A DNA stretch of 64,000 nucleotides from Burkholderiaceae bacterium (GCA_035498175.1 DATKAJ010000105.1:9482-73481), one strand, 5' to 3'. Positions 40,263-52,620 are shown, numbered from the stretch's first letter. The notes: generated from the sequence alone by a model not told the origin. Translations and numbers: made by a program.

Positions 40263-40583
40263 ATGCTCGCCAAGATCACCTCGAAGAACCAGCTCACCCT
40301 GCCCAAGGCCGCGGTGCAGGCAGTGGGGGCTGCGGAGTATTTCGATGTCACCGTGCGCGCAGGGCAGATCGTGCTGACGCCGGTGCGCATCCAGCGCGGC
40401 GAGGCGGTGCGCGCCAAGCTGGCCGAGCTCGGCCTGGCCGAGGCCGACGTGGGGGACGCCGTGCGCTGGGCACGGTCGGCGCCGGCAGGAAAAGCAGCGC
40501 CCAAGGCAGCTGAGCCCGCCGCGGGATATAAGGCGCGCGGCGCCACACCGGCGAAGGGCAAAAAGCCTGCGCGCCGCGCATGA
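40263..40583 (+). CDS. AbrB/MazE/SpoVT-family antitoxin
   Basis: MLAKITSKNQLTLPKAAV swapped-hairpin motif. 4-nt overlap with the PIN gene. Confidence 0.7.
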   Translation: MLAKITSKNQLTLPKAAVQAVGAAEYFDVTVRAGQIVLTPVRIQRGEAVRAKLAELGLAEADVGDAVRWARSAPAGKAAPKAAEPAAGYKARGATPAKGKKPARRA

Positions 40584-41017
40584 CGGCCAAGGCGCCGCCG
40601 CGCGTGGTGCTGGACACCAACGTTGTGTTGTCGGCGCTGCTGTTCGGCGCTGGGCCGGCGGCACGCCTACGTGCGGGCTGGCAGTCCGGGCGCTTCGTGC
40701 CCCTGGCAAGCAGGGCCACGGCGCAGGAACTGGTGCGGGTGCTCGGCTACCCGAAGTTCAAGTTGTCCGCCGCCGAGCAGGAGGAACTGCTCGCAGATCT
40801 CATGCCTTGGGTCGAGGTCGTACGCCTTCCCGATCCGCCGCCGGTCGCGCCCGCTTGCCGCGACCCGTTCGACCTACCGTTCCTGCACCTGGCCATTGCC
40901 GGCCGCGCGCGGGCACTCGTGTCGGGCGACCGCGATTTACTCGCGCTGGCCGGCACGCCGAGGCTATGCCCGGTGCTCGGCATCGACGCCTTCTGCCGGC
41001 AGTTCCTGGGCGACTGA
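40580..41017 (+). CDS. PIN-domain toxin (VapC-like)
   Basis: VVLDTNVVLSALL, DPFDLPFLHLA and ALVSGDRDLL acidic-residue pattern. Confidence 0.75.
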   Translation: MTAKAPPRVVLDTNVVLSALLFGAGPAARLRAGWQSGRFVPLASRATAQELVRVLGYPKFKLSAAEQEELLADLMPWVEVVRLPDPPPVAPACRDPFDLPFLHLAIAGRARALVSGDRDLLALAGTPRLCPVLGIDAFCRQFLGD

Positions 41018-41849: not shown

Positions 41850-41933
41850 CTCAGGACGGGCGCGCAGCGGGCCCGGCTTCACGACCCGCACCACAAGCGG
41901 CGGCGCCGCAGCCAACGGTCACCGCCGGCAGTC

Positions 41934-42571
41934 TCAACCGCTATCAGCAGGCGGACTGGTGCCATCGAGAGTGATGATGGCACCGACCAGTTTCGAGGCC
42001 GACACAAGCGCTGGCCCTCCGGCGGCAACCGCCGCGATGTTCGCCGCCGCGATGGCCATGCCGCCCACATTCCATATCGCTTCTTGAATTTCTTGTAGGT
42101 CTGCTGGGTCCAGAGGACGGTTCCGCCCCTTGGCACCGAGCACACCTCCTCGATGGCATTGTTCACATGCCGCATGAACGTCGCCTCGGCAAAATGCGGC
42201 CATTCACGCAGCAGCTTGCTGTCCTGGAAGGCGGTCAGCAAATCGTCGGCCGCCCCCTCGGTGAGCTTGAAGGCGCCGAGCAGCCCGCGCTCGAATTTCA
42301 GAATCGTTTCGATGTCGGCTCGGATGACGTCGATCGACACCTTTCCGCCCTTCAGCTCCTTTTCTACGTCACCCGCCAGCGCCTTGAACAGGCCGCGCCG
42401 GTTGATCTCGCGCAGAGCCTCGCACAGGTCGGACGCCATCAGCGCCACGTCACCTGCTTTCTGTGCATCCGAGCGTTTTGGGTCCTGCAAATTGTGCGCG
42501 ACCTGATTGAGTCGACCGAAGAGCCGGTTCGCTTCATCGCGCAACCATTCGACGTCCTGCTCGAGTCCCAT
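41934..42571 (-). pseudogene. hypothetical protein with an apparent frameshift near 42066-42085
   Basis: The frame of ORF 41879-42571 has coding-like codons down to ...KKFKKR, then turns Arg-rich. The frame of ORF 41934-42203 becomes GC3-rich from GGMAIAAANIAAVAAGG onward. Confidence 0.4.
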
Positions 42572-42583
42572 GGTTTGCTCCAG

Positions 42584-44149
42584 TCAGTGCGGGGCGATAT
42601 GTTCGGCGAAATACCGCTGCAGCAACCCGGCCTGCAACCGCGTGCCGGCGAGGCCGATGTACCCGTCCGGCCGCAGCAGAAAGTAGCTCGGCCCGCGAAT
42701 GCCCGCGCGCGCGAGCGCGGCGATGGTGGCGGGAACGTTCGGAATCTCGAGGACGCTGATCGGCAGCCCGGACGGGACCTCTTCGGCCGACTGGTCGATG
42801 AGGATCAGCGTGAACCGCGTGTCGTCGAGCTTCACGAACAGATCCTCGGCCGGCGCATTCGGTGTGAAGCTGAGCTTCATCCACGGGAAGCGATCGCCGG
42901 CGCGCGGCGAATCGTCGGGCAGGCCGGCATTCGTCTGCGAGACCGGGCTCTGCCGATAGTTGATGCCCAGTTGCGAGATCGCGCCGAAGGCGGCCTTGCG
43001 CGCGGCGTCGAAGCGCATCGCGAGTGCAGGGACGTGTGCGATCACGCGCGTACGCAGGATCGTGCTCACCCAGTTGTCGGACACGGCGAACGAGAACAGG
43101 CGGTCAGTGGTCGCGAGCAGACGCTCGGCCACCGGCTCGCGCTCGGCGGCGTAGCTGTCGAGCAGCTTGTCGCCCGCCTTGCCGTTGAGGACGTACGCAA
43201 GCTTCCACGCGAGGTTGTAGGCGTCCTGCAGGCCGGTGTTCATGCCCTGCGCGCCGACCGGGCTGTGGATGTGCGCGGCGTCGCCGAGCACGAAGCAGCG
43301 GCCGGCCCGGAAGGGCGCTGCCTTGCGGTGGTGGATGCGATAAGTGGAAAACCAGCGGCACTCGCCGAACGCCAGGTCCTGCACCGCCTGCGCACGCAGC
43401 CTCGGCACCAGTTGCTCGAACGTCAGGCCGTCACGCTCGCGCAGGTCTTCCGGCAGGATGCCGACCAGGCGCCAGTGGTCCTGCCTGCGCATCGGAAAGA
43501 ACAGGTGAAAGCCGTCGACGAGCAGGAAGATGTTGATCTCGTCGGGCGTCATCGCCCCGGTGACGGTGACGTCAGCGACGAAGAACACGTGCTCGTAAGG
43601 CGCACCGGGAAAGGCGATGCGGTTGAGCTCGCGCACCGCGCTCTTGGCGCCGTCGCAGCCGGCGACGTAGCGCGCGGTGACGACCTGCTCGCCGCCCGGC
43701 GTACGGATCGTGGCGCGCACGCCGTCGGGCTGCGGGTAGAGCGCGCTCAGCTCGTGCTGCCACTGCACGTCGCGCCCGTGGGTGCGCAGCGCGTCGCCGA
43801 GGAGTTTCTCGTTGTCGTCCTGGCCGAGGATCAGCAGGAACGGATACGCGGAAAGGTTGCGTCCGATGTCGCCGAGCGGGATGCGCACGGTGCGCCGCCC
43901 GCGCGCCCACATGTTGGCGCCGGTGGCGACCTTGCCGAGCGCCAGCGCGCGCTCCATCAGCCCGAGGTGGGCGTAGATCTCCATCGTGCGCGCCTGCACG
44001 CCGAGCGCGCGCGACTCGCGCGCCGGGCCGGCATGGCGGTCGATGATCAGCGCATCGGTGCCGTGGCGCGCGAGCTGGTTGGCGAGCATCAGCCCGCTCG
44101 GGCCGGCACCGACGATCAGGACGTCGCACTGCGCGGGCAGGGCTGCCAT
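42584..44149 (-). CDS. FAD-dependent aromatic-ring monooxygenase (PheA/TfdB-like)
   Basis: DVLIVGAGPSGL, the DG fingerprint CDGAKSAVR and GDAAHIHSPVGAQGMNTGLQDA motifs. Confidence 0.85.
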   Translation of the reverse strand: MAALPAQCDVLIVGAGPSGLMLANQLARHGTDALIIDRHAGPARESRALGVQARTMEIYAHLGLMERALALGKVATGANMWARGRRTVRIPLGDIGRNLSAYPFLLILGQDDNEKLLGDALRTHGRDVQWQHELSALYPQPDGVRATIRTPGGEQVVTARYVAGCDGAKSAVRELNRIAFPGAPYEHVFFVADVTVTGAMTPDEINIFLLVDGFHLFFPMRRQDHWRLVGILPEDLRERDGLTFEQLVPRLRAQAVQDLAFGECRWFSTYRIHHRKAAPFRAGRCFVLGDAAHIHSPVGAQGMNTGLQDAYNLAWKLAYVLNGKAGDKLLDSYAAEREPVAERLLATTDRLFSFAVSDNWVSTILRTRVIAHVPALAMRFDAARKAAFGAISQLGINYRQSPVSQTNAGLPDDSPRAGDRFPWMKLSFTPNAPAEDLFVKLDDTRFTLILIDQSAEEVPSGLPISVLEIPNVPATIAALARAGIRGPSYFLLRPDGYIGLAGTRLQAGLLQRYFAEHIAPH

Positions 44150-44349
44150 GGCGGACTCCCGGGTGCGCTGCGGTGGCAGATTGTGATCTCAGACCAGCGC
44201 GGATGGGACTCGCTGCATGCCCGGGCGATTATCGGGAAGTCCATCCTTTCCCTTGGGCTATTTTAGGAAACGGGCTTATCGTGAAATAAGGGCGTTCGTT
44301 ATTTCAGGATTCCTCGCCCATGCTCCGCCCACCGCCCGGCCGTTAGGCG

Positions 44350-45207
44350 ATGATCGAGTGCTTTTCGGCGCTGCGCGAGCGTTGGCGCAACGACATCAGC
44401 GAGTCGCTCGAGTTTCTCGACATCGGCACCGGCGTCGCCACCGGCACGGTGACGCTGTGCACGCTGGGCAGTGAGCAGGTGCGCGAATTCACCGCGGTCG
44501 GCCGTGCGGTCAACCTCGCTTCGGTGCTGGTGCACAACGCGCGTAAAGGCAAGCAGCTGCTGACGGACCACCAGACCTTCCGCAACGCGGCCGCGGTGAT
44601 CGAGCAGTGGAAGGAGCCGTTCAAGATTCAGATCGAGAGCGTCGGCGAAAGCGGCCCCGATTACGATGTCTATCAGGTCTTGCGGCTGCGGGCTGATGGC
44701 ACGGAACCGTCGCCGGCGGCAGCGCCGTCGACGCCGGTCGCTCCGCCGATGCCGGCCTCGCGGCCACAGGTCTTCATCAGCTACGCGCACGCGGACCGCG
44801 ACTGGCTGGACCAGCTGCACACGCACCTGCGCCCGTTCTTGAAGCGCGAGGACTTCGAGCTGTGGGACGACACGCGCATCGCGGCCGGGCAGATGTGGCG
44901 CAGCGAGATCGAGACCGCGCTCGCCCATGCGGGCGCCGCGGTGCTGCCGGTGACGCCGAAGTTCCTGTCGTCGGAGTTCATAGACCGGCACGAGCTGCCG
45001 CCGCTGTTCGAGGCGGCGCGCAAGCGCGGCCTGCGCATTTTCTGGCTGCCGGTATCGGCCTCGGCATACGAAGTGACCGAAATTGCCGGCTTCCAGGCGC
45101 TGCACGATCCGCGCACGCCGCTGGACCAGATCGGCCCCGCCGAGCGCAACGCGGCGCTGGTGGAGGTGTGCCGGCAGATCGCCGGGGCGCTGAAGAGGAG
45201 CGGCTAG
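44350..45207 (+). CDS. truncated class III cyclase-homology remnant fused to a TIR domain
   Basis: DIGTGVATGTVTLCTLGSEQVREFTAVGRAVNLASVL is the C-terminal half of a nucleotidyl cyclase fold, with Arg of VNxAxR replaced by Val. In-frame TAG at 44344-44346. Pro-rich linker. TIR: VFISYAHADRDWLDQLHTHL...WDDTRIAAGQMW...FIDRHELPPLF. Confidence 0.75.
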   Translation: MIECFSALRERWRNDISESLEFLDIGTGVATGTVTLCTLGSEQVREFTAVGRAVNLASVLVHNARKGKQLLTDHQTFRNAAAVIEQWKEPFKIQIESVGESGPDYDVYQVLRLRADGTEPSPAAAPSTPVAPPMPASRPQVFISYAHADRDWLDQLHTHLRPFLKREDFELWDDTRIAAGQMWRSEIETALAHAGAAVLPVTPKFLSSEFIDRHELPPLFEAARKRGLRIFWLPVSASAYEVTEIAGFQALHDPRTPLDQIGPAERNAALVEVCRQIAGALKRSG

Positions 45208-45358
45208 CGCCGCGACGTCGCGAAAACGCGACTTATCCATTAGAAGGTTCTACCTCGAATGGAACGCGCCTGACGCAGCACAGGGCGGTTCTGCGCTCCT
45301 GACCCAGTATGGAAGCGTCCGATGAAGGTGGTCGGATGCAGCTGGAAAGGAGGTCCCA

Positions 45359-45733
45359 ATGGTCAGGCGTCAAGTCAAGACAAAAGGCACGGGAGTCCGG
45401 CGGCAGGTCACCGAGGCGGCCCGGCACGCGCCGACCGCCCTTGCGGTACCGCCGAAGACGAAGGCGATGATGAAGGCCAGGCTCGAGACTGCGGGGCGCA
45501 AGCTCCAGGCCACGGGCAACGCTGCCGGCAAAGTCGCGCGCAGTTCGATGCGCGAGATGACCGTCGCGGTGAAGGCCTCGCGTGAGCCGATGGCGATGCT
45601 CTGGCGCAATGTCAGGCTCGCAGGCCGCCACATCGCGCGCAGCGCCGCCGAGGCGTGGAATGAAGTCGCGCCCGCGCGCAAAGAGGTGATGAAACTGCCT
45701 GTTGCGCGTCCGGCTCGTCGACCGGCTGCGTAG
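45359..45733 (+). CDS. small strongly basic hypothetical protein
   Basis: Perfect AAGGAGG SD 6 nt upstream; GC3-rich codons; Lys/Arg/Ala-rich, 124 aa. Confidence 0.55.
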   Translation: MVRRQVKTKGTGVRRQVTEAARHAPTALAVPPKTKAMMKARLETAGRKLQATGNAAGKVARSSMREMTVAVKASREPMAMLWRNVRLAGRHIARSAAEAWNEVAPARKEVMKLPVARPARRPAA

Positions 45734-45938
45734 TGGCGCAGTAGCTCGGCGCCGGCGGCACCCTCCCTTCGCAGCCAGAAGGCGGGCGCCGGCGGCGCCG
45801 TTGTTTTCACAACGACGCTGCGCCGCCCAGGGCCGTCACGGCACTGGATCGGCGACCGGCTGCAGTGGAGAATCAGCCGCCCGCGCGCGAACCCGCAGTT
45901 CGGCCCGATCGCGGCCACTCCACTGGCAGGATGACCTC

Positions 45939-46742
45939 ATGTCGCTGACCCATATCCTCGTCGACTTCGACAACGTCAAGCCGAGCGCGTCTGACATCGC
46001 GCTGGCACACGGCGCCAGCCTGCGGCTGGCCATCGTGCGCGGCCCGCAGCCGACACGCTACGAAGCCGATCTGGCCGAAACGCTGCACGCGATGGGCGAT
46101 CACGTGAGTTTCAGCCGCTGTGCCAAGGCGGGCAAGAACGCGGCCGACATGCAGATCGCGTTCCATATCGGCGAGATCGTCGCCGCGCTGGATTCGGGTG
46201 CGGAGAGAACGACGCGCTTCATCGTCATCTCGCGCGACAAGGGCTTCGAGCCGCTGATGGCCTATCTGCGCGGCAAGGGCTTCAGCGCTGCGCTGGCGCC
46301 GAGCTTCAAGGCCGCACTCGGCGGGGCAGTCGCTGCGGAGAAGGTCGCGCACAAACCGGCGAAGAAGCGCGCAGCCAAGACACCGGCAGCTAAAGCCGCA
46401 GCACCGGTGAAGGCCCCCGCACCCAGGGCGCCAGCCGCGAAGAAGGCGGTGAAGAAGAAGGCTGAGGCACCGGCCAAGGCCGCGCCGCCGCCCAAGAAGA
46501 GCGCGCACGCCGCCAAGCCGGCGGATGACCAGCTCGCGCGCGTGATCGAGAGCCTGCAGCGCATGGGCGACAACAAGCGCCCGGCCAAGCGCAAGGGGCT
46601 GGTGCGGCACATTGAATCGCATCTCGGCCGCACGCTGACGCCGCAGCAGCTCGAGGCGCTGGTCGATCGCCTCGCCCACGACGGCGTGCTGGCCTTTGAC
46701 GGCAACAAGGTCGACTACCGGCTGCCGAAGGCGAGACGCTAG
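45939..46742 (+). CDS. NYN/PIN-like domain protein with Ala/Lys/Pro histone-H1-like tract
   Basis: ILVDFDNV, GKNAADMQIAFHIG and FIVISRDKGFEPL (NYN-like acidic pattern). Then AKKRAAKTPAAKAAAPVKAPAPRAPAAKKAVKKKAEAPAKAAPPPKK and a small C-terminal domain. Confidence 0.65.
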   Translation: MSLTHILVDFDNVKPSASDIALAHGASLRLAIVRGPQPTRYEADLAETLHAMGDHVSFSRCAKAGKNAADMQIAFHIGEIVAALDSGAERTTRFIVISRDKGFEPLMAYLRGKGFSAALAPSFKAALGGAVAAEKVAHKPAKKRAAKTPAAKAAAPVKAPAPRAPAAKKAVKKKAEAPAKAAPPPKKSAHAAKPADDQLARVIESLQRMGDNKRPAKRKGLVRHIESHLGRTLTPQQLEALVDRLAHDGVLAFDGNKVDYRLPKARR

Positions 46743-46837: not shown

Positions 46838-47038
46838 ATGCCAGGCAAGTTCATGACCATCACCCTCGCTGCCGCCGGCGCGGCCCTGCTTTCAGCCTGT
46901 GTCGTGGTACCCGCGCCCGGGCCCGGACCCTACGCATACCGCCCCGCGCCGGTTTATGCGGGCGTGGTGGTGCCGCCGGCCGCGGTCGTCGTCGCGACAC
47001 CGCCGCCCCGCTGGGGCTGGTATGGCCGGCACTGGTGA
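46838..47038 (+). CDS. small lipoprotein
   Basis: AAGGAG SD; lipobox LLSAC; Pro/Val-rich; ends RWGWYGRHW. Confidence 0.5.
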   Translation: MPGKFMTITLAAAGAALLSACVVVPAPGPGPYAYRPAPVYAGVVVPPAAVVVATPPPRWGWYGRHW

Positions 47039-47148: not shown

Positions 47149-48444
47149 ATGAGCACACGGCCTTTCGATCTGGTGTTGTACGGCGCGACCGGTTTCGTCG
47201 GTCGCCGCGCGGCCGCGTATCTCGCGACGCGTCGCCTGCGCCGGAAACTGCGCTGGGCGATTGCCGGCCGCGACCCGGCGAAGCTGGCCGCACTGCGCGA
47301 TGAGATCTCCCGCGACAAGGGCACGCTGCAGCCGCCGGGGATTGTCCTCGCCGACAGCGGTGATGTCGCGGCAGTCGAGGCGATGGCGGCGTCGACCCGC
47401 GTGCTGATCACAACGGCCGGGCCGTTCGCGCTCTATGGCGACGCGATCGTCGATGCCTGCGCGCAGCACCGCACACATTACGCCGACATCACCGGCGAGA
47501 CGACCTGGGTGCGACGCGTGATCGATCGCCTGCATGCACGCGCGGCGCGCGACGGCACGCGCATCGTGCCGTTCTGTGGCTTCGACTCGGTGCCCTCGGA
47601 TCTCGGCGCGCTGCTGCTCGCGCGCTACATCGAGTCGGAATACAGCGCGCCCTGCGTCGAAGTCAGGGGCTATTTCCGCATGATGGGCGGGTTCAACGGC
47701 GGCACGCTGGCAACCAATGCCCATCGCTTCGAGGCCGGCGAAGTCGAAACCGGCCGGGATCCGTTCCTGCTGAATCCGCGTTCCCGCCATTCGGCGAGCG
47801 AGCTGGTGGCCAACCAGGACGTGCGCACACCGCACTACGACGAGGCGGTCGGCGGGTGGGTCGCGCCGTTCATCATGGGCTCGATCAACACCCGCGTGGT
47901 CCGGCGCAGCGCTGCGTTGAATGCCGCTTACGGCACGCCGTACGGACCGCACTTCAGCTACCAGGAGTACATGCGGATGGGCGGGTCGCTCGCCGGTGCG
48001 AAGGCGGTTGCGTTCACCGTCGGCCTGCGCACGTTCGAGCGCGTGATGGAACACCGGAGCGCGCGCACGGTGCTCGGCGCGATGCTGCCGCGGCCGGGAG
48101 AGGGACCGTCCGAGGAGGCCATGGCGCGCGGCTGGTTCAAGACCGATCTCGTGGGTCGCACGGCCGACGGCCGCAGCGCGTGGGCGCGGATCGGGTACGA
48201 CGGCGATCCGGGCAATCGCGCGACGCTGCGCATCCTGTGCGAGGGCGGGCTGGCGCTGGCCTTCGACGGAGCGAAGCTGCCCGGCGGACCGAAGCGCGGC
48301 GGCGTGCTGACGCCTGCGACCGCGATCGGCGAAACGCTGGTGCCACGGCTGCGCGCAGCCGGATTCGAAATCAGCGTCGGGCGCGAACCGATCGCCGGAC
48401 GACGGCGTCAGGACACTTCGCGCGCGAGCGCACCCATCACGTAG
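47149..48444 (+). CDS. saccharopine dehydrogenase family protein (enoyl-reductase-like)
   Basis: DLVLYGATGFVGR Rossmann N-terminus; 431 aa. Confidence 0.8.
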   Translation: MSTRPFDLVLYGATGFVGRRAAAYLATRRLRRKLRWAIAGRDPAKLAALRDEISRDKGTLQPPGIVLADSGDVAAVEAMAASTRVLITTAGPFALYGDAIVDACAQHRTHYADITGETTWVRRVIDRLHARAARDGTRIVPFCGFDSVPSDLGALLLARYIESEYSAPCVEVRGYFRMMGGFNGGTLATNAHRFEAGEVETGRDPFLLNPRSRHSASELVANQDVRTPHYDEAVGGWVAPFIMGSINTRVVRRSAALNAAYGTPYGPHFSYQEYMRMGGSLAGAKAVAFTVGLRTFERVMEHRSARTVLGAMLPRPGEGPSEEAMARGWFKTDLVGRTADGRSAWARIGYDGDPGNRATLRILCEGGLALAFDGAKLPGGPKRGGVLTPATAIGETLVPRLRAAGFEISVGREPIAGRRRQDTSRASAPIT

Positions 48445-50213: not shown

Positions 50214-50617
50214 CCTGATCCAAATAATTCATTTTTCAGGAATCGAATCCTTGCATAGATTGCGGCCATCGTCACTCGCCCCTCCAGGAGACAGCGATGA
50301 ACCCGAGCCCCGTCACAGACAGCACCGCCCTGTACCACTCCGCGCGCCGGGCACGCGCACTGGCGGTCGGCGACGCGTTGGCGCATTTCGCGACCGCCGC
50401 AGGGCGCGCCTGGACCCGCGTTGTAGTGCGTGGCCGCCGCCGGCTGCGGCTGCGTGGGGTTGCCGGCGCCTGAGCAGGCATGAAACCCGCGATGCGGCGC
50501 ACCAAGATGTGCCGCATTTTTTCGGCCGACTGTAATGCCAACCCCGGAATCTCCGACTACGCTGCCGTACCGCCCCGGCCATCGGGCGCGGGACGCCAAC
50601 CCGACAGGAGATCACCG

Positions 50618-50908
50618 ATGAATCATCGTCATTCACTGGCCGTCACCGCGTTCGCGCTCGCGGCCGTCGTCGCGGGCGCCGTCATGGCCCAGGAAAAGGG
50701 CCCGGTCAAGCCGCAAACCGACAAGGAGAAGTGCTACGGCGTGGCCAAGGCCGGGCAGAACGACTGCGAGGCCGGGCCGGGCACCACCTGCGCCGGGACC
50801 TCGAAGACAGACTACCAGGGCAACTCGTGGAAGTACGTGGCGAAGGGCACGTGCACGTCGATGACGACGCCGAAGGGCAAGGGATCGCTCACCCCCGTCA
50901 AGATGTGA
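50618..50908 (+). CDS. bufA1: DUF2282 / BufA1-type bufferin precursor peptide
   Basis: Sec signal peptide, then [43 protein letters not shown] with four conserved Cys. Confidence 0.85.
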
Positions 50909-50956
50909 TCGCCTGATTGAGAGAGCGCCGCGGCCGCCCACACGGACGGCCGCGGA

Positions 50957-51817
50957 ATGATGCTGATGTCGACCCACGCCATGCTGACCGGCGGTCTCGG
51001 ACTCAAGCCGCAGCACTTCGAAGCGGCGGACGCCTGCGCTGCGCCGGGGCTGTGGTTCGAGGTCCACGCCGAGAACTACATGGTCGACGGCGGGCCGCGG
51101 CTCGCGTGGCTCGAACGCATCCGCGCATCGCATCCGCTGTCGCTGCACGGCGTCTCGCTGTCGCTCGCGGCCGATGCGCCGCCGGACCCACGACAGCTCG
51201 AGCGTCTCGCGGCGCTGGTCGATCGCGTCGAGCCCGCGCTGGTGTCCGAGCACCTCGCCTGGAGCACGTGGCGCGGCGCCTATCGGCCGGACCTCCTGCC
51301 CGTCCCGCGCAGCCGCGAAGTTCTGCAGCGCGTGGTCGACAACATCACCTGCGTGCAGCAGCGACTAAGGCGCCGAATCGCTCTCGAGAACCCGTCGCAT
51401 TACCTGCGCTTCGATGCGCACGAGTATGGCGAAATCGAATTCCTGGTCGAGATCGCGCGCCGCAGCGGCTGCGCGCTGCTGCTCGACGTCAACAACGTGC
51501 ACGTCAGTGCCAACAACCTAGAATACTCGGCCGCGGAGACCCTCGATGCGGTGCCCGCAGAATGGGTCGAGGAGATCCACCTGGCCGGCCACAGCGCTGA
51601 CCCGAACCTCGGAGACGTGCTGCTGATCGACTCCCACGACGCTCCGGTTGCGGCCGCCGTATGGGCGCTGTACGAGCGCTTGATCAACCGCATCGGCCCG
51701 CGCCCGACGCTGGTCGAGCGCGACGAGAACGTGCCCGGCTTCGATGAACTGCTGAGCGAGCGCGATCACGCGCACTCGCTGCTGTCGCTGCATCAGCCGC
51801 TCGCGCAGGCCGCCTGA
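50957..51817 (+). CDS. bufB: DUF692 / MNIO-family enzyme (BufB-like)
   Basis: [51 protein letters not shown] and VERDENVP motifs. Confidence 0.88.
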
Positions 51818-52620
51818 TGCAGCTCGCCCTGCACGCCTATCAGGACGCGTTCGCGGCCGCGTTGCTCGCCGACGATCCTGCGGCCGACGCACCGGAGGAG
51901 CTGCGATCGTTGCTGGCGCAGCCCGGCTTTGCCGTCTACCGCAATACGGTGCTGAAAGGCTGCATCGACGCGCTGCAGGCGAACTTCCCGACGGTCGATC
52001 GGCTGGTCGGTGACGAGTGGTTCCGCGCCGCGGCGGCGATCCACGCGCGCGCGACGCTGCCGTCGCAGGTGTCACTGCTGGTCTACGGCGAGTCGTTCCC
52101 GGACTTCCTCGCCGCGTTCGAACCGGCGCAGGAGCTGCCGTACCTCGCGGATGTCGCGCGCGTCGACCGCGCGTGGACCGAGTCGCATGTTGCCGCGGAC
52201 GATCCGCTGCTCGAACCCCCGGCGGTCGTGGCGCTCTCGCCCGCGCAGATGGCCACGACCGGCCTGCAGCTGCATGCCGCGACGCGCTGGCACTGGAGCG
52301 ACGCCTGGCCGATCCACGCACTGTGGAGCCGCAATCGCAGCGAGTCGAGCGAAGAGCCCGCCGAGATTGTCTGGGCCGGCGAAGGCGTGCTGCTGACGCG
52401 ACCGTACGGCGCGGTGCACTGCGCCGCGCTGTCGGGCGCCGGTGCCGCGTTTCTGGCCGCGTGCGCCACGGGTGCGAGCATCGAGCAGGCCGTGCTGGCC
52501 GCGCTGAGCGCCGAACCCGCGGCGGATATCGCTGCACTGATCCATCAACTGCTGGATGCCGGCGCGTTCAGCGCGCTGCAGCCCGCACAGCGCGACACCG
52601 CGCGCAAGGAGGAGGAATGA
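51817..52620 (+). CDS. bufC: DUF2063-family partner protein (BufC-like)
   Basis: TGATG overlap with bufB. FAVYRNTVLKGCIDAL..NFP pattern. Confidence 0.75.
   Translation: MQLALHAYQDAFAAALLADDPAADAPEELRSLLAQPGFAVYRNTVLKGCIDALQANFPTVDRLVGDEWFRAAAAIHARATLPSQVSLLVYGESFPDFLAAFEPAQELPYLADVARVDRAWTESHVAADDPLLEPPAVVALSPAQMATTGLQLHAATRWHWSDAWPIHALWSRNRSESSEEPAEIVWAGEGVLLTRPYGAVHCAALSGAGAAFLAACATGASIEQAVLAALSAEPAADIAALIHQLLDAGAFSALQPAQRDTARKEEE

What the first reader, a model, noticed from the sequence alone, without database searches (positions are those of the whole stretch)
44150..46742. Cyclase-remnant-TIR fusion followed by a basic protein and an NYN/PIN-like H1-like protein: candidate uncharacterised TIR module
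Seen in the sequence:
- The ORF at 44350-45207 is bounded upstream by an in-frame TAG (44344-44346). It starts with only the C-terminal half of a class III nucleotidyl-cyclase fold (DIGTGVATGTVTLCTLGSEQVREFTAVGRAVNLASVL).
- The metal-binding N-terminal half is absent, and the Arg of the VNxAxR motif is Val.
- A Pro-rich linker joins this to a complete-looking TIR domain (VFISYAHADRDW...FIDRHELPPLF).
- Two co-directional genes follow. One is a 124-aa very basic protein with a perfect AAGGAGG SD. The other is a 267-aa protein with NYN/PIN-like acidic motifs plus an Ala/Lys/Pro histone-H1-like tract.
- The upstream intergenic DNA is visibly AT-richer than its surroundings.

Established: bacterial TIR domains act as NAD-consuming or signal-producing immune modules in Thoeris, CBASS and Pycsar. 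Pycsar pairs class III-like cyclases with TIR or TM effectors encoded as separate genes.

Inference: a cis fusion of a catalytically dead cyclase remnant to TIR, next to a putative RNase/DNA-binding protein, matches no defence architecture I know. It could be a new TIR-based module or a decaying one.
Basis: partly seen in the sequence, partly recalled or inferred. Interest (0 to 1): 0.75.

Follow-up and report, generated by a model that had tools for sequence, protein, structure and literature searches.

The report
Truncated remnant of a GAF-cyclase-TIR gene
The "half-cyclase plus TIR" gene is the surviving back half of a longer three-domain gene (GAF sensor, cyclase-like domain, TIR) that lost its front half here, and the two genes after it are an unrelated conserved pair, so this is not a new three-gene immune module.

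Summary
Every sequence-level observation holds. ORF 44350-45207 has an in-frame TAG just upstream. It carries only the C-terminal half of a class III cyclase domain, then a Pro-rich linker and an intact TIR domain. A pI-12 124-aa protein and a PIN_7/NYN protein with an Ala/Lys/Pro tract follow.

- **The ORF is a truncated copy.** It is the 3' half of a ~540-580 aa GAF + class III cyclase-like + TIR gene family. That family includes soil-metagenome members up to 70% identical and at least 9 full-length representatives, all three domains above Pfam cut-offs. About 290 N-terminal codons are missing. The window ORF starts at a family-conserved internal Met. Nothing recognisable of the missing half remains in the 200-bp intergenic region or elsewhere in the window.
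- **The Arg-to-Val change is a family trait.** It is shared across the family and is not decay of this copy.
- **The downstream genes are not partners of the TIR gene.** In six related Burkholderiaceae genomes the PIN_7 gene is syntenic with the saccharopine-dehydrogenase-like gene (5 of 6) and the basic gene (5 of 6). None carries the TIR gene or the flanking monooxygenase. Sequence conservation resumes about 30 nt after the TIR stop codon.
- **Functional status is undecided.** The TIR keeps its catalytic-type Glu and shows no accelerated evolution.

Interest is low to moderate. The undescribed parent family is the interesting by-product.

The parts
44150..44349 (.). Intergenic region between the divergent FAD-monooxygenase gene and the TIR ORF. 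It contains the in-frame TAG (44344-44346) and is where homology to the parent gene ends.
   Evidence: GC is 0.605. tblastn with full-length homologues extends upstream of the ATG only marginally, through two stop codons. That extension is no better than chance: 724 of 1000 shuffles score at least as well. No sigma-70-like promoter was found. The only purine-rich motif is AGG, 2 nt before the ATG.
44350..44694 (+). Residues 1-115: C-terminal half of a class III cyclase-homology domain, the remnant of the parent gene's cyclase-like domain.
   Evidence: PDB phmmer gives CyaB 3r5g residues 93-195 of 198, E=2.5e-6. The segment is 71% identical to the same part of P0002 and of the L010/L009 composite; the composite's whole cyclase domain passes Pfam Guanylate_cyc (28.8 bits, cut-off 21.9). 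AlphaFold pLDDT is below 50 for residues 1-54 and 54-76 for residues 55-125. Met1 aligns with a conserved internal Met (P0002 M109).
44695..44766 (+). Residues 116-139: Pro/Ala-rich linker.
   Evidence: Read directly from the sequence. The linker varies in sequence and length across the family. pLDDT is low for residues 126-131.
44767..45207 (+). Residues 140-285 plus the stop codon: complete TIR domain. The catalytic-type Glu215 codon is at 44992-44994. The unusual Pro200 codon is at 44947-44949.
   Evidence: TIR_2 E=2.5e-12. pLDDT is above 90. Foldseek matches TIR structures with probability 1.0. E215 is conserved in at least 90% of 57 relatives. L200P falls at a position where 53 of 55 relatives have Leu.
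42584..44149 (-). FAD-dependent aromatic-ring monooxygenase gene. It is the left neighbour and lies in the same lineage-specific segment. It is not part of the TIR gene.
   Evidence: FAD_binding_3 E=7e-85. NCBIfam PRK06184-like E=8.5e-101, though the 338.2-bit score is below that model's curated cut-off of 476. It is absent from all six related loci.
45238..45358 (+). Conserved non-coding leader or promoter region of the basic-protein gene. It marks the right edge of the variable segment that holds the TIR fragment.
   Evidence: It aligns across the window and five of the six related loci. It includes the near-invariant motif TTAGAnGGyTCTACCTyGAATG. Conservation stops 5' of about 45238.
45359..45733 (+). 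Conserved 124-aa, very basic hypothetical protein. It is unrelated to the TIR gene.
   Evidence: pI is 12.0 and the SD is AAGGAGG. There are 50 homologous clusters of about 123-125 aa with no Pfam family. It is syntenic with PIN_7 in 5 of 6 loci.
45748..45808 (+). Long GC-rich hairpin followed by GUUGUUUUC. It is terminator-like and lies between the basic gene and the PIN_7 gene.
   Evidence: Terminator scan. The 106-nt fold has dG -63 kcal/mol and z=-3.65, with 0 of 200 shuffles as stable.
45939..46742 (+). 267-aa PIN_7/NYN-like domain, then a disordered Ala/Lys/Pro (H1-like) linker, then a C-terminal winged-helix-like domain. It is a conserved betaproteobacterial gene unrelated to the TIR gene.
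   Evidence: PIN7 E=5e-18 and NYN E=7e-6. At least 190 homologous clusters were found, and most of those listed span the whole query. AlphaFold gives pLDDT 80-95 for residues 1-128, below 50 for 130-192 and 84-92 for 194-262. The C-terminal domain resembles cullin and KAT6A winged-helix domains, but only at E 0.03-0.07.

Best explanation
ORF 44350-45207 is the 3' half of a single-polypeptide GAF + class III cyclase-like + TIR gene. The whole GAF domain and the metal-binding first half of the cyclase-like domain, about 290 codons, were lost here by a deletion or rearrangement. The breakpoint lies at or within a few bases of the present ATG, which is a family-conserved internal Met codon that the gene caller picks up after the upstream TAG.

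The fragment sits at the right edge of a lineage-specific segment, together with the FAD-monooxygenase gene and an unknown 230-aa ORF. Immediately next to it is a conserved chromosomal block: leader, basic protein, PIN_7 protein and saccharopine-dehydrogenase-like gene. The fragment has no functional link to that block.

**Shown**
- Homology to the full-length family.
- Absence of the N-terminal half.
- Absence of synteny with the downstream genes.

**Inferred for the parent family**
- The GAF domain senses a small ligand.
- The dimeric cyclase-homology domain keeps both metal-binding Asp motifs but lacks the Asn/Arg transition-state pair in every member inspected. It therefore probably acts mainly as a nucleotide-binding or dimerising transducer.
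- It controls assembly of the C-terminal TIR into an NAD-cleaving oligomer.

**Inferred for the window copy**
- Without the sensor and half of the dimerisation domain, the copy is most likely a recently made, poorly expressed gene remnant (about 60%).
- Less likely, it is a working orphan TIR.
For: **Full-length relatives**
- P0002 is 70% identical over 99% of the ORF and carries Guanylate_cyc + TIR_2, with a GAF ORF overlapping it upstream.
- P0006/L001 is GAF-cyclase-TIR.
- The L010/L009 composite scores GAF_2 3e-17, Guanylate_cyc 1.1e-6 (above cut-off) and TIR_2 9e-13.
- P0179 is 570 aa and 68% identical. Nine of nine further representatives of 541-579 aa have all three domains above Pfam cut-offs.

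**Truncation**
- The window Met1 aligns to the internal Met of the family.
- tblastn with full-length proteins finds no other piece in the 64-kb window.
- The upstream extension is at chance level.
- Only 200 bp separate the ORF from the next gene.
- There is no usable SD before the ATG, unlike ORF2 and ORF3.
- The remnant part folds with low confidence.

**No module**
- Six related loci carry PIN_7, with the basic gene in 5 of 6 and the saccharopine-dehydrogenase-like gene in 5 of 6. None has the TIR or monooxygenase gene.
- DNA conservation starts about 30 nt after the TIR stop codon.
- There is a strong terminator-like hairpin between ORF2 and ORF3.
- Neighbours of the full-length homologues differ.
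Against: - The ORF shows no sign of decay. It has no frameshifts, GC3 is 0.90 as in neighbouring genes, and relative-rate tests show no acceleration.
- It deviates at only 3 of 41 conserved TIR columns, although one of these is L200P.
- The catalytic-type Glu is retained.
- So the data equally fit a recent truncation or a fragment kept by selection.
- The junction rests on a single MAG contig and could not be checked against reads.
- No IS element, repeat or tRNA marks the breakpoint, so the mechanism of loss is unknown.
- The proposed mechanism for the parent family is inference only.
Confidence: 0.78

Rival explanations
1. The 285-aa protein is a live, selected orphan TIR effector. It would be transcribed from the intergenic region shared with the monooxygenase gene, with the half cyclase domain serving as a new N-terminal appendage.
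For: The ORF is intact with native codon bias (GC3 0.90). Rate is not accelerated in either the cyclase remnant or the TIR. Glu215 and nearly all conserved TIR positions are kept. The TIR is modelled with pLDDT above 90.
Against: Half of a cyclase fold is unlikely to fold on its own (pLDDT below 50 for residues 1-54). There is no SD and no promoter-like site. An in-frame stop lies 3 nt upstream. No independent second occurrence of this short form was found; the other short forms (P0005, P0189) come with frameshifts downstream in the TIR coding region. Pro200 sits in a beta-strand position that is Leu in 53 of 55 relatives. Open reading frames persist easily by chance in 68% GC DNA; the opposite strand also has a 313-aa ORF here.
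Confidence: 0.25
2. One reading: the TIR fusion, the basic protein and the PIN/NYN protein form one new three-gene TIR defence module.
For: The three genes are co-directional and adjacent. TIR and PIN/NYN domains both occur in defence systems. There are PADLOC domain-level hits to ThsB, SAVED-TIR and PycC.
Against: The basic gene and the PIN_7 gene recur together in 5 of 6 related loci with no TIR gene, and their homologue tables share at least 10 contig lengths, suggesting more shared contigs. TIR homologues never have these neighbours. The conserved leader of the basic gene begins right after the TIR stop codon, so the TIR gene lies outside the conserved block. A 151-bp AT-richer gap and a terminator-like hairpin separate the genes. 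PADLOC finds nothing for ORF2 or ORF3.
Confidence: 0.03
3. The truncation is an assembly artefact. The MAG contig would be chimeric near 44340, and the real genome would carry a full-length GAF-cyclase-TIR gene.
For: The sequence is known from a single metagenome-assembled contig. Other assemblies of this family contain obvious frameshift errors.
Against: The left side is a normal 200-bp divergent intergenic region next to an intact monooxygenase gene. There is no repeat at the junction that would favour a mis-join. GC3 and composition are continuous across it.
Confidence: 0.07
4. It is a degenerate member of a known cyclic-nucleotide defence system (Pycsar, CBASS or Thoeris).
For: Weak PycC hits for the fragment (2.8e-4). 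Stronger PycC hits for full-length relatives (1e-17 to 4e-18). ThsB1 and SAVED-TIR hits on the TIR.
Against: There is no cNMP-binding, SAVED or SLOG/SIR2 partner, either in the protein or nearby. By sequence the cyclase domain is closer to housekeeping class III cyclases than to the solved PycC: Cya2 2w01 scores 55.6 bits and CyaB 52 bits, against 32.5 bits for PycC 7r65. The TIR hits cover the TIR domain only.
Confidence: 0.03

Closest known systems
Pycsar (PycC cyclase plus cNMP-binding-domain-TIR or TM effector)
   Same: Both combine a class III-type cyclase fold with a TIR output domain. The PADLOC PycC and TIR models hit the parent family.
   Different: Pycsar is a two-gene system whose effector senses the signal through a cNMP-binding domain (10.64898/2026.08.12.744502, PMC11224242). 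Here all parts are in one chain and the sensor is a GAF domain. The cyclase lacks the Asn/Arg pair and is closer to housekeeping cyclases than to PycC 7r65. The window copy lacks the catalytic half altogether. No antiphage data exist.
GAF-regulated class III adenylate cyclases (for example cyanobacterial CyaB1/CyaB2; from my own knowledge)
   Same: An N-terminal GAF domain is followed by a dimeric class III cyclase domain. The best PDB sequence matches are bacterial class III cyclases Cya2 and CyaB, and PDE-type GAF domains.
   Different: The parent family adds a C-terminal TIR. It has lost the canonical transition-state Asn/Arg pair in all 12 members inspected. The window copy has neither the GAF domain nor the first half of the cyclase.
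Stand-alone and fused bacterial TIR NADases (AbTir, BtTir, ThsB-type)
   Same: TIR_2 fold with the conserved Glu in the 'S..F...HEL' segment.
   Different: There is no coiled-coil, STAND, SAVED or other known partner domain. The only N-terminal part is a broken cyclase domain. NADase activity is untested.
PIN_7 family of NYN-like PIN domains (Matelska et al. 2017, PMC5499597)
   Same: ORF3 matches PF18475 at E=5e-18. It has the expected acidic residues (D9, D11, D70, D100), read directly from the sequence.
   Different: That paper lists the family as function unknown. The H1-like Ala/Lys/Pro linker and the C-terminal winged-helix-like domain are features of this betaproteobacterial subgroup. 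Nothing links it to the TIR gene.

Membership tests
TIR domain (Pfam TIR_2) | Profile match above the curated cut-off, and a flavodoxin-like TIR fold | tested here: met
   47.8 bits against a cut-off of 28. pLDDT is above 90, and Foldseek matches TIR structures with probability 1.0.
TIR domain (NADase-type) | Conserved catalytic Glu in the alpha-C region | tested here: met
   E215 ('DRHELPP') is conserved in at least 90% of 57 relatives. It aligns with the 'YEL' Glu of BtTir 7uxr. Enzymatic activity cannot be tested with these tools.
Class III nucleotidyl cyclase catalytic domain | Complete catalytic domain with the two metal-binding Asp motifs | tested here: not met
   Only profile positions 96-149 of 183 (E=0.039, below cut-off) and CyaB residues 93-195 of 198 are present. 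The FxDxxGF and GDG motifs of full-length relatives have no counterpart in the window.
Class III nucleotidyl cyclase catalytic domain | Transition-state Asn and Arg (VNxAxR) | tested here: not met
   The window has N and V. None of 12 family members has both residues.
GAF-cyclase-like-TIR fusion family (unnamed; defined here) | Collinear homology across the cyclase C-half, linker and TIR to ~540-580 aa proteins with GAF + Guanylate_cyc + TIR_2 | tested here: met
   66-71% identity over all 285 residues to P0002, L010/L009 and P0179. The domain content of full-length members is confirmed.
GAF-cyclase-like-TIR fusion family (unnamed; defined here) | Full three-domain architecture in the window copy | tested here: not met
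   The GAF domain and the cyclase N-half are absent. There is an in-frame stop 3 nt upstream and nothing else in the window.
Pycsar | Separate PycC cyclase gene next to an effector with a cNMP-binding domain fused to TIR or TM | tested here: not met
   No cNMP-binding domain was found in ORF1, and no cyclase gene among the Pfam-scanned ORFs between about 38 and 52 kb. The PycC hit on the fragment is 2.8e-4 and partial.
Thoeris | ThsB TIR protein together with a ThsA (SIR2 or TM plus SLOG) gene | tested here: not met
   The ThsB1 model hits the TIR only (1.4e-10). There is no ThsA-like neighbour.
CBASS (TIR-SAVED effector) | SAVED domain and an adjacent CD-NTase | tested here: not met
   The SAVED_TIR model matches only its TIR part (profile positions 5-148 of 404). 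No CD-NTase was detected nearby.
PIN_7 / NYN-like nucleases (ORF3) | Profile match above the cut-off and conserved acidic residues | tested here: met
   PF18475 scores 66 bits against a cut-off of 34, and NYN 27 bits against 24.2. D9, D70 and D100 are invariant in 59 homologues. Nuclease activity cannot be tested here.

The most novel reading that the evidence does not exclude
The parent family may be a previously undescribed one-protein signalling or immune device. In it, a GAF sensor and a catalytically atypical cyclase-homology dimer would gate a TIR NADase in cis. The window fragment might then be a naturally 'unleashed' or re-purposed TIR that is still expressed and selected, not dead DNA.
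Probability: 0.2. Interest if true: 0.55.

Novelty: new variant of a known kind. Interest (0 to 1): 0.3.

Why it matters
For this window the result is mainly a correction. There is no new three-gene TIR system here. What looks like an odd 'dead-cyclase-TIR' fusion is a broken copy of a longer gene sitting next to unrelated conserved genes.

The useful by-product is the parent family. Dozens of soil-bacterial proteins of about 540-580 aa join a GAF sensor, a cyclase-like domain and a TIR domain in one chain. The cyclase-like domain keeps its metal ligands but lacks the transition-state Asn/Arg pair. I found no description of this architecture in the literature I could search.

If it is a regulated NADase, it would be a compact cis version of the cyclase-plus-TIR logic of Pycsar-type systems. 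It would also be a good model for how a cyclase-homology dimer can control TIR assembly. The truncated copy would serve as a natural control lacking the regulatory half.

Tried and rejected
- **Remnants of the missing cyclase half upstream.** tblastn extends through two stops to 'LGNGLI'. Shuffling shows this is chance: 724 of 1000 shuffles for P0002 and 277 of 1000 for P0006. Rejected.
- **Missing half elsewhere in the window.** None found.
- **Repeats, IS ends or tRNA at the breakpoint.** Only chance GC-rich matches, and no tRNA in the window.
- **Rfam scan of 40-48 kb.** One sub-threshold miRNA-model hit on the hairpin after ORF2. This is a chance match.
- **Relaxed-selection tests.**
  - Window-specific changes at family-invariant sites number 8, against 5, 5, 3 and 1 in the comparably close lineages (the divergent L012 has 42).
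  - Tajima relative-rate tests show no consistent acceleration.
  - The window deviates at 3 of 41 conserved TIR columns, which is mid-range.
  - Inconclusive overall, so pseudogene status cannot be proven this way.
- **Pycsar affinity.** PADLOC PycC models hit full-length relatives at 1e-17. PDB sequence search scores housekeeping cyclases higher than PycC 7r65. I therefore do not call the family Pycsar-like in the membership sense.
- **Phage or plasmid carriage.** No viral-contig relatives. No plasmid record covers 80% or more of a full-length member.
- **Foldseek of the PIN_7 protein.** No hit at E <= 0.001, only generic alpha/beta folds and weak winged-helix matches.
- **Family libraries.** NCBIfam and PADLOC give nothing for ORF2 or ORF3.
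- **Genomic context of P0002.** The gene list was available but the DNA was not.
Full report
**1. What is in the sequence**

- The ORF list and the raw sequence confirm three co-directional ORFs:
  - 44350-45207, 285 aa
  - 45359-45733, 124 aa
  - 45939-46742, 267 aa when read from the ATG preceded by AGGA
- All three have the high third-position GC expected of real genes in this 68% GC window: GC3 of 0.90, 0.80 and 0.86.
- A TAG lies in frame at 44344-44346.
- The 200-bp upstream intergenic region has GC 0.605. It is shared with a divergently transcribed FAD-dependent monooxygenase gene at 42584-44149 (FAD_binding_3 E=7e-85).

**2. Domain content of ORF1**

- Pfam finds TIR_2 (E=2.5e-12, residues 141-236).
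- Pfam finds only a sub-threshold Guanylate_cyc match (E=0.039) to profile positions 96-149 of 183.
- Against PDB sequences, residues 6-115 align to residues 93-195 of the 198-residue CyaB cyclase domain (3r5g, E=2.5e-6). 'GRAVNLASVL' lies opposite 'GREVNLASRL'.
- AlphaFold2 with a 57-sequence alignment models the TIR at pLDDT above 90. Residues 1-54 are below 50.
- Foldseek returns TIR structures such as AbTir, SARM1, RPS4 and SPARTA at probability 1.0.
- The Glu expected for NAD-cleaving TIRs, E215 in 'DRHELPP', is present. It is at least 90% conserved among relatives.

**3. ORF1 is a truncated copy of a longer gene family**

First evidence from the protein search:
- P0002 is 70% identical over 99% of ORF1 but 104 residues longer at the N-terminus. 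It has Guanylate_cyc + TIR_2, and a GAF ORF overlaps it upstream.
- P0006 is GAF + cyclase + the start of a TIR. In its locus L001 and in the related locus L002, the rest of the TIR coding sequence continues in other frames through assembly frameshifts.

A metagenome scan with the cyclase-remnant alignment found four more members, L009 to L012.
- The L010/L009 composite of 573 aa scores GAF_2 3e-17, Guanylate_cyc 1.1e-6 (28.8 bits, cut-off 21.9) and TIR_2 9e-13.

An exhaustive HMMER search of 1.84 billion representatives with P0002 gave further members.
- It returned P0179 (570 aa, 68% identity), P0180, P0182 and P0183 (about 40% identity), and about 15 more proteins of 514-562 aa that match through the cyclase and into the TIR.
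- Nine of nine that I scanned have GAF + Guanylate_cyc + TIR_2, all above Pfam cut-offs.

How the window copy relates to these:
- The window protein is collinear with the last 285 residues of these proteins.
- Its Met1 aligns with a conserved internal Met, 'SMIDRF' in P0002.
- The full-length proteins carry both metal-binding motifs, 'LFADMRGYS' and 'FLGDGLMALF', upstream of that point.

**4. Nothing of the missing half remains**

- tblastn of P0002 and P0006 against the whole window finds only the ORF1 region.
- The alignment creeps 30 codons upstream through two stops ('LGNGLIVK*GRSLF' against 'LGDGLMALF'). The added score is about 7 raw units.
- In a shuffle test, 724 of 1000 shuffled upstream sequences scored at least as well. 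I treat it as chance.
- With only 200 bp to the next gene, about 290 codons must have been removed.
- No repeat, IS end or tRNA marks the breakpoint.
- The ATG has no usable Shine-Dalgarno: only AGG 2 nt upstream. ORF2 has AAGGAGG at 5 nt and ORF3 has AGGA at 7 nt.
- No sigma-70-like promoter was found.

**5. The Arg-to-Val change is a family trait**

- At the VNxAxR position the family shows A, T, A, H, Y and F in place of Arg. Some members also lack the Asn: L012 has 'VGLAAF', P0180 'VVLAAR' and P0183 'VVRAAY'.
- None of the 12 members inspected has both residues.
- The nearest stand-alone cyclases (response-regulator-cyclases, about 40% identical) have 'VNLASRL'.
- The parent family therefore has an atypical, possibly non-catalytic, cyclase-homology domain. 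This is an inference from the established role of this Asn/Arg pair in class III cyclases.

**6. The three genes are not a module**

Searching one genome per species for the PIN_7 protein gave six loci in Burkholderiaceae and other betaproteobacterial MAGs. tblastn of window proteins against them shows:
- The basic protein is next to PIN_7 in 5 of 6 loci.
- The saccharopine-dehydrogenase-like gene (window 47149-48444) is downstream in 5 of 6.
- The small 66-aa ORF (46838-47038) is present in 2.
- ORF1 and the monooxygenase have no hit in any of them.

Other evidence for a pair that is independent of the TIR gene:
- Genes upstream of the basic gene differ from genome to genome.
- The PIN_7 protein has at least 190 homologous clusters, and most of those listed span the whole query.
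- The basic protein has 50 clusters. The two result tables also list at least 10 matching contig lengths, which suggests shared contigs.

A DNA alignment of the regions upstream of the basic gene shows:
- About 120 nt of conserved non-coding sequence, starting at window position about 45238, only about 30 nt after the ORF1 stop codon.
- Nothing alignable before that point.

ORF1 thus lies just outside a conserved chromosomal block, at the edge of a variable segment. Conversely, full-length ORF1 relatives have unrelated neighbours such as DUF3738, DUF4159, a sulfotransferase and an outer-membrane beta-barrel protein. A terminator-like hairpin (dG -63 kcal/mol, z=-3.65) also separates ORF2 from ORF3.

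**7. Is the fragment alive?**

I could not decide this.

For decay:
- Loss of the sensor and half of the cyclase fold.
- No SD.
- Low-confidence fold of the remnant.
- Pro200 in the beta-strand before the catalytic helix, where 53 of 55 relatives have Leu.
- D32G, R4C and R74H at positions invariant in the other compared family members.

Against decay:
- No frameshifts or stops.
- Native codon bias.
- Relative-rate tests with four ingroup and four outgroup choices show no consistent acceleration.
- Only 3 of 41 conserved TIR columns deviate, which is mid-range for the family.

An intact 285-codon ORF is weak evidence at 68% GC; the opposite strand has a 313-codon ORF over the same DNA. My estimates are about 60% recent non-functional remnant, about 25% expressed orphan TIR and under 10% assembly artefact.

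**8. Comparison with known systems**

- PADLOC gives only domain-level hits for ORF1: SAVED_TIR 4e-11 and ThsB1 1.4e-10, both on the TIR part only, and PycC 2.8e-4. It gives nothing for ORF2 or ORF3.
- The Pfam-scanned ORFs between about 38 and 52 kb include no cNMP-binding domain, SAVED, SLOG, SIR2 or CD-NTase. This stretch otherwise holds ordinary genes: LysR regulators, CMD, PNPOx, a PIN_3 toxin gene, a CSD-Excalibur protein, Sacchrp_dh, DUF2282 and an MbnB-like gene.
- Full-length family members hit PADLOC PycC models at 1e-17. In a PDB sequence search, housekeeping cyclases score higher than the solved PycC: Cya2 2w01 55.6 bits and CyaB 52 bits, against 7r65 at 32.5 bits. The family works with the same parts as Pycsar, but I do not file it as Pycsar.
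- Literature searches found no description of a GAF-cyclase-TIR fusion. A 2026 preprint surveying immune cNMP cyclases also does not mention one. The library is incomplete, so this is absence of evidence only.
- No relatives occur in viral contigs. No plasmid record carries a full-length member.

**9. The downstream pair**

- ORF3 has three parts:
  - a PIN_7/NYN-like domain, residues 1-128, pLDDT 80-95, with D9, D70 and D100 invariant
  - a disordered Ala/Lys/Pro linker, residues 130-192
  - a small winged-helix-like domain, residues 194-262, with Foldseek similarity to cullin and KAT6A winged-helix domains only at E 0.03-0.07
- PIN_7 is listed as function unknown in the PIN-superfamily survey (PMC5499597).
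- ORF2 is a conserved pI-12 protein without any family match.
- Their function remains unknown. Nothing ties them to TIR signalling.

**10. Verdict**

- The window feature itself is an ordinary gene remnant.
- The parent GAF-cyclase-like-TIR architecture is a new variant of known cyclase/TIR signalling and is worth a separate look.
- Interest is 0.3.

Noticed in passing
window 45238-45358 (and L003-L007 upstream of the basic-protein gene): About 120 nt of non-coding sequence upstream of the basic-protein gene is conserved in the window and five related loci. It includes the near-invariant motif TTAGAnGGyTCTACCTyGAATG. RNAalifold pairs that motif with the Shine-Dalgarno region about 100 nt downstream, which would make it a possible anti-SD or leader element. 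Both sides are invariant, so there is no covariation support. A small hairpin lies just 5' of the SD.
   Followed up: partly
window 45748-45808: A long GC-rich hairpin followed by GUUGUUUUC lies right after the basic-gene stop codon. The 106-nt fold has dG -63 kcal/mol and z=-3.65. It is probably an intrinsic terminator or attenuator between the basic gene and the PIN_7 gene. It also attracts a chance sub-threshold Rfam miRNA hit (28.5 bits against a gathering score of 66).
   Followed up: partly
window 41879-42571 (minus strand): A 230-aa ORF with no family hits and lower GC (0.625). Third-position GC shifts from one frame to another near 42100-42150. The alternative frame encodes a hydrophobic, TM-like segment (GGMAIAAANIAAVAAGGPALVSASKLVGAIITL). 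This may be a second damaged gene in the same lineage-specific segment as the TIR fragment.
   Followed up: partly
metagenome loci L009-L012, L001, L002; proteins P0179-P0221: A family of at least ~20 50%-identity clusters of GAF + cyclase-like + TIR proteins, 514-580 aa. All keep both metal-binding Asp motifs, and none of 12 inspected has the canonical Asn+Arg pair. The TIR part belongs to at least two different TIR subtypes across the family. I found no description in the literature I could search.
   Followed up: partly
window 40263-41017: A PIN_3 (VapC-like) toxin gene at 40580-41017 (E=1e-21). It overlaps by 4 nt an upstream 106-aa ORF whose N-terminus looks AbrB/SpoVT-like and whose tail is Ala/Lys/Pro-rich. 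The upstream ORF has no Pfam hit. Together they are probably a type II toxin-antitoxin pair.
   Followed up: partly
window 50615-52620: DUF2282 (E=5e-25), an MbnB/TglH/ChrH-family enzyme (E=1e-93) and a following 267-aa ORF form a cluster resembling the DUF2282/DUF692/DUF2063 gene sets. This last comparison is from my own knowledge. The cluster is unrelated to the finding.
   Followed up: no
L001 8001-9700 and L002 5534-6860: Both ENA contigs, which come from the same sample, carry the GAF-cyclase-TIR gene broken by several frameshifts. The reading frames can be stitched back into an intact protein. These are most likely assembly errors and not pseudogenes. Short 'truncated' database entries such as P0005 and P0189 are probably explained the same way.
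   Followed up: partly
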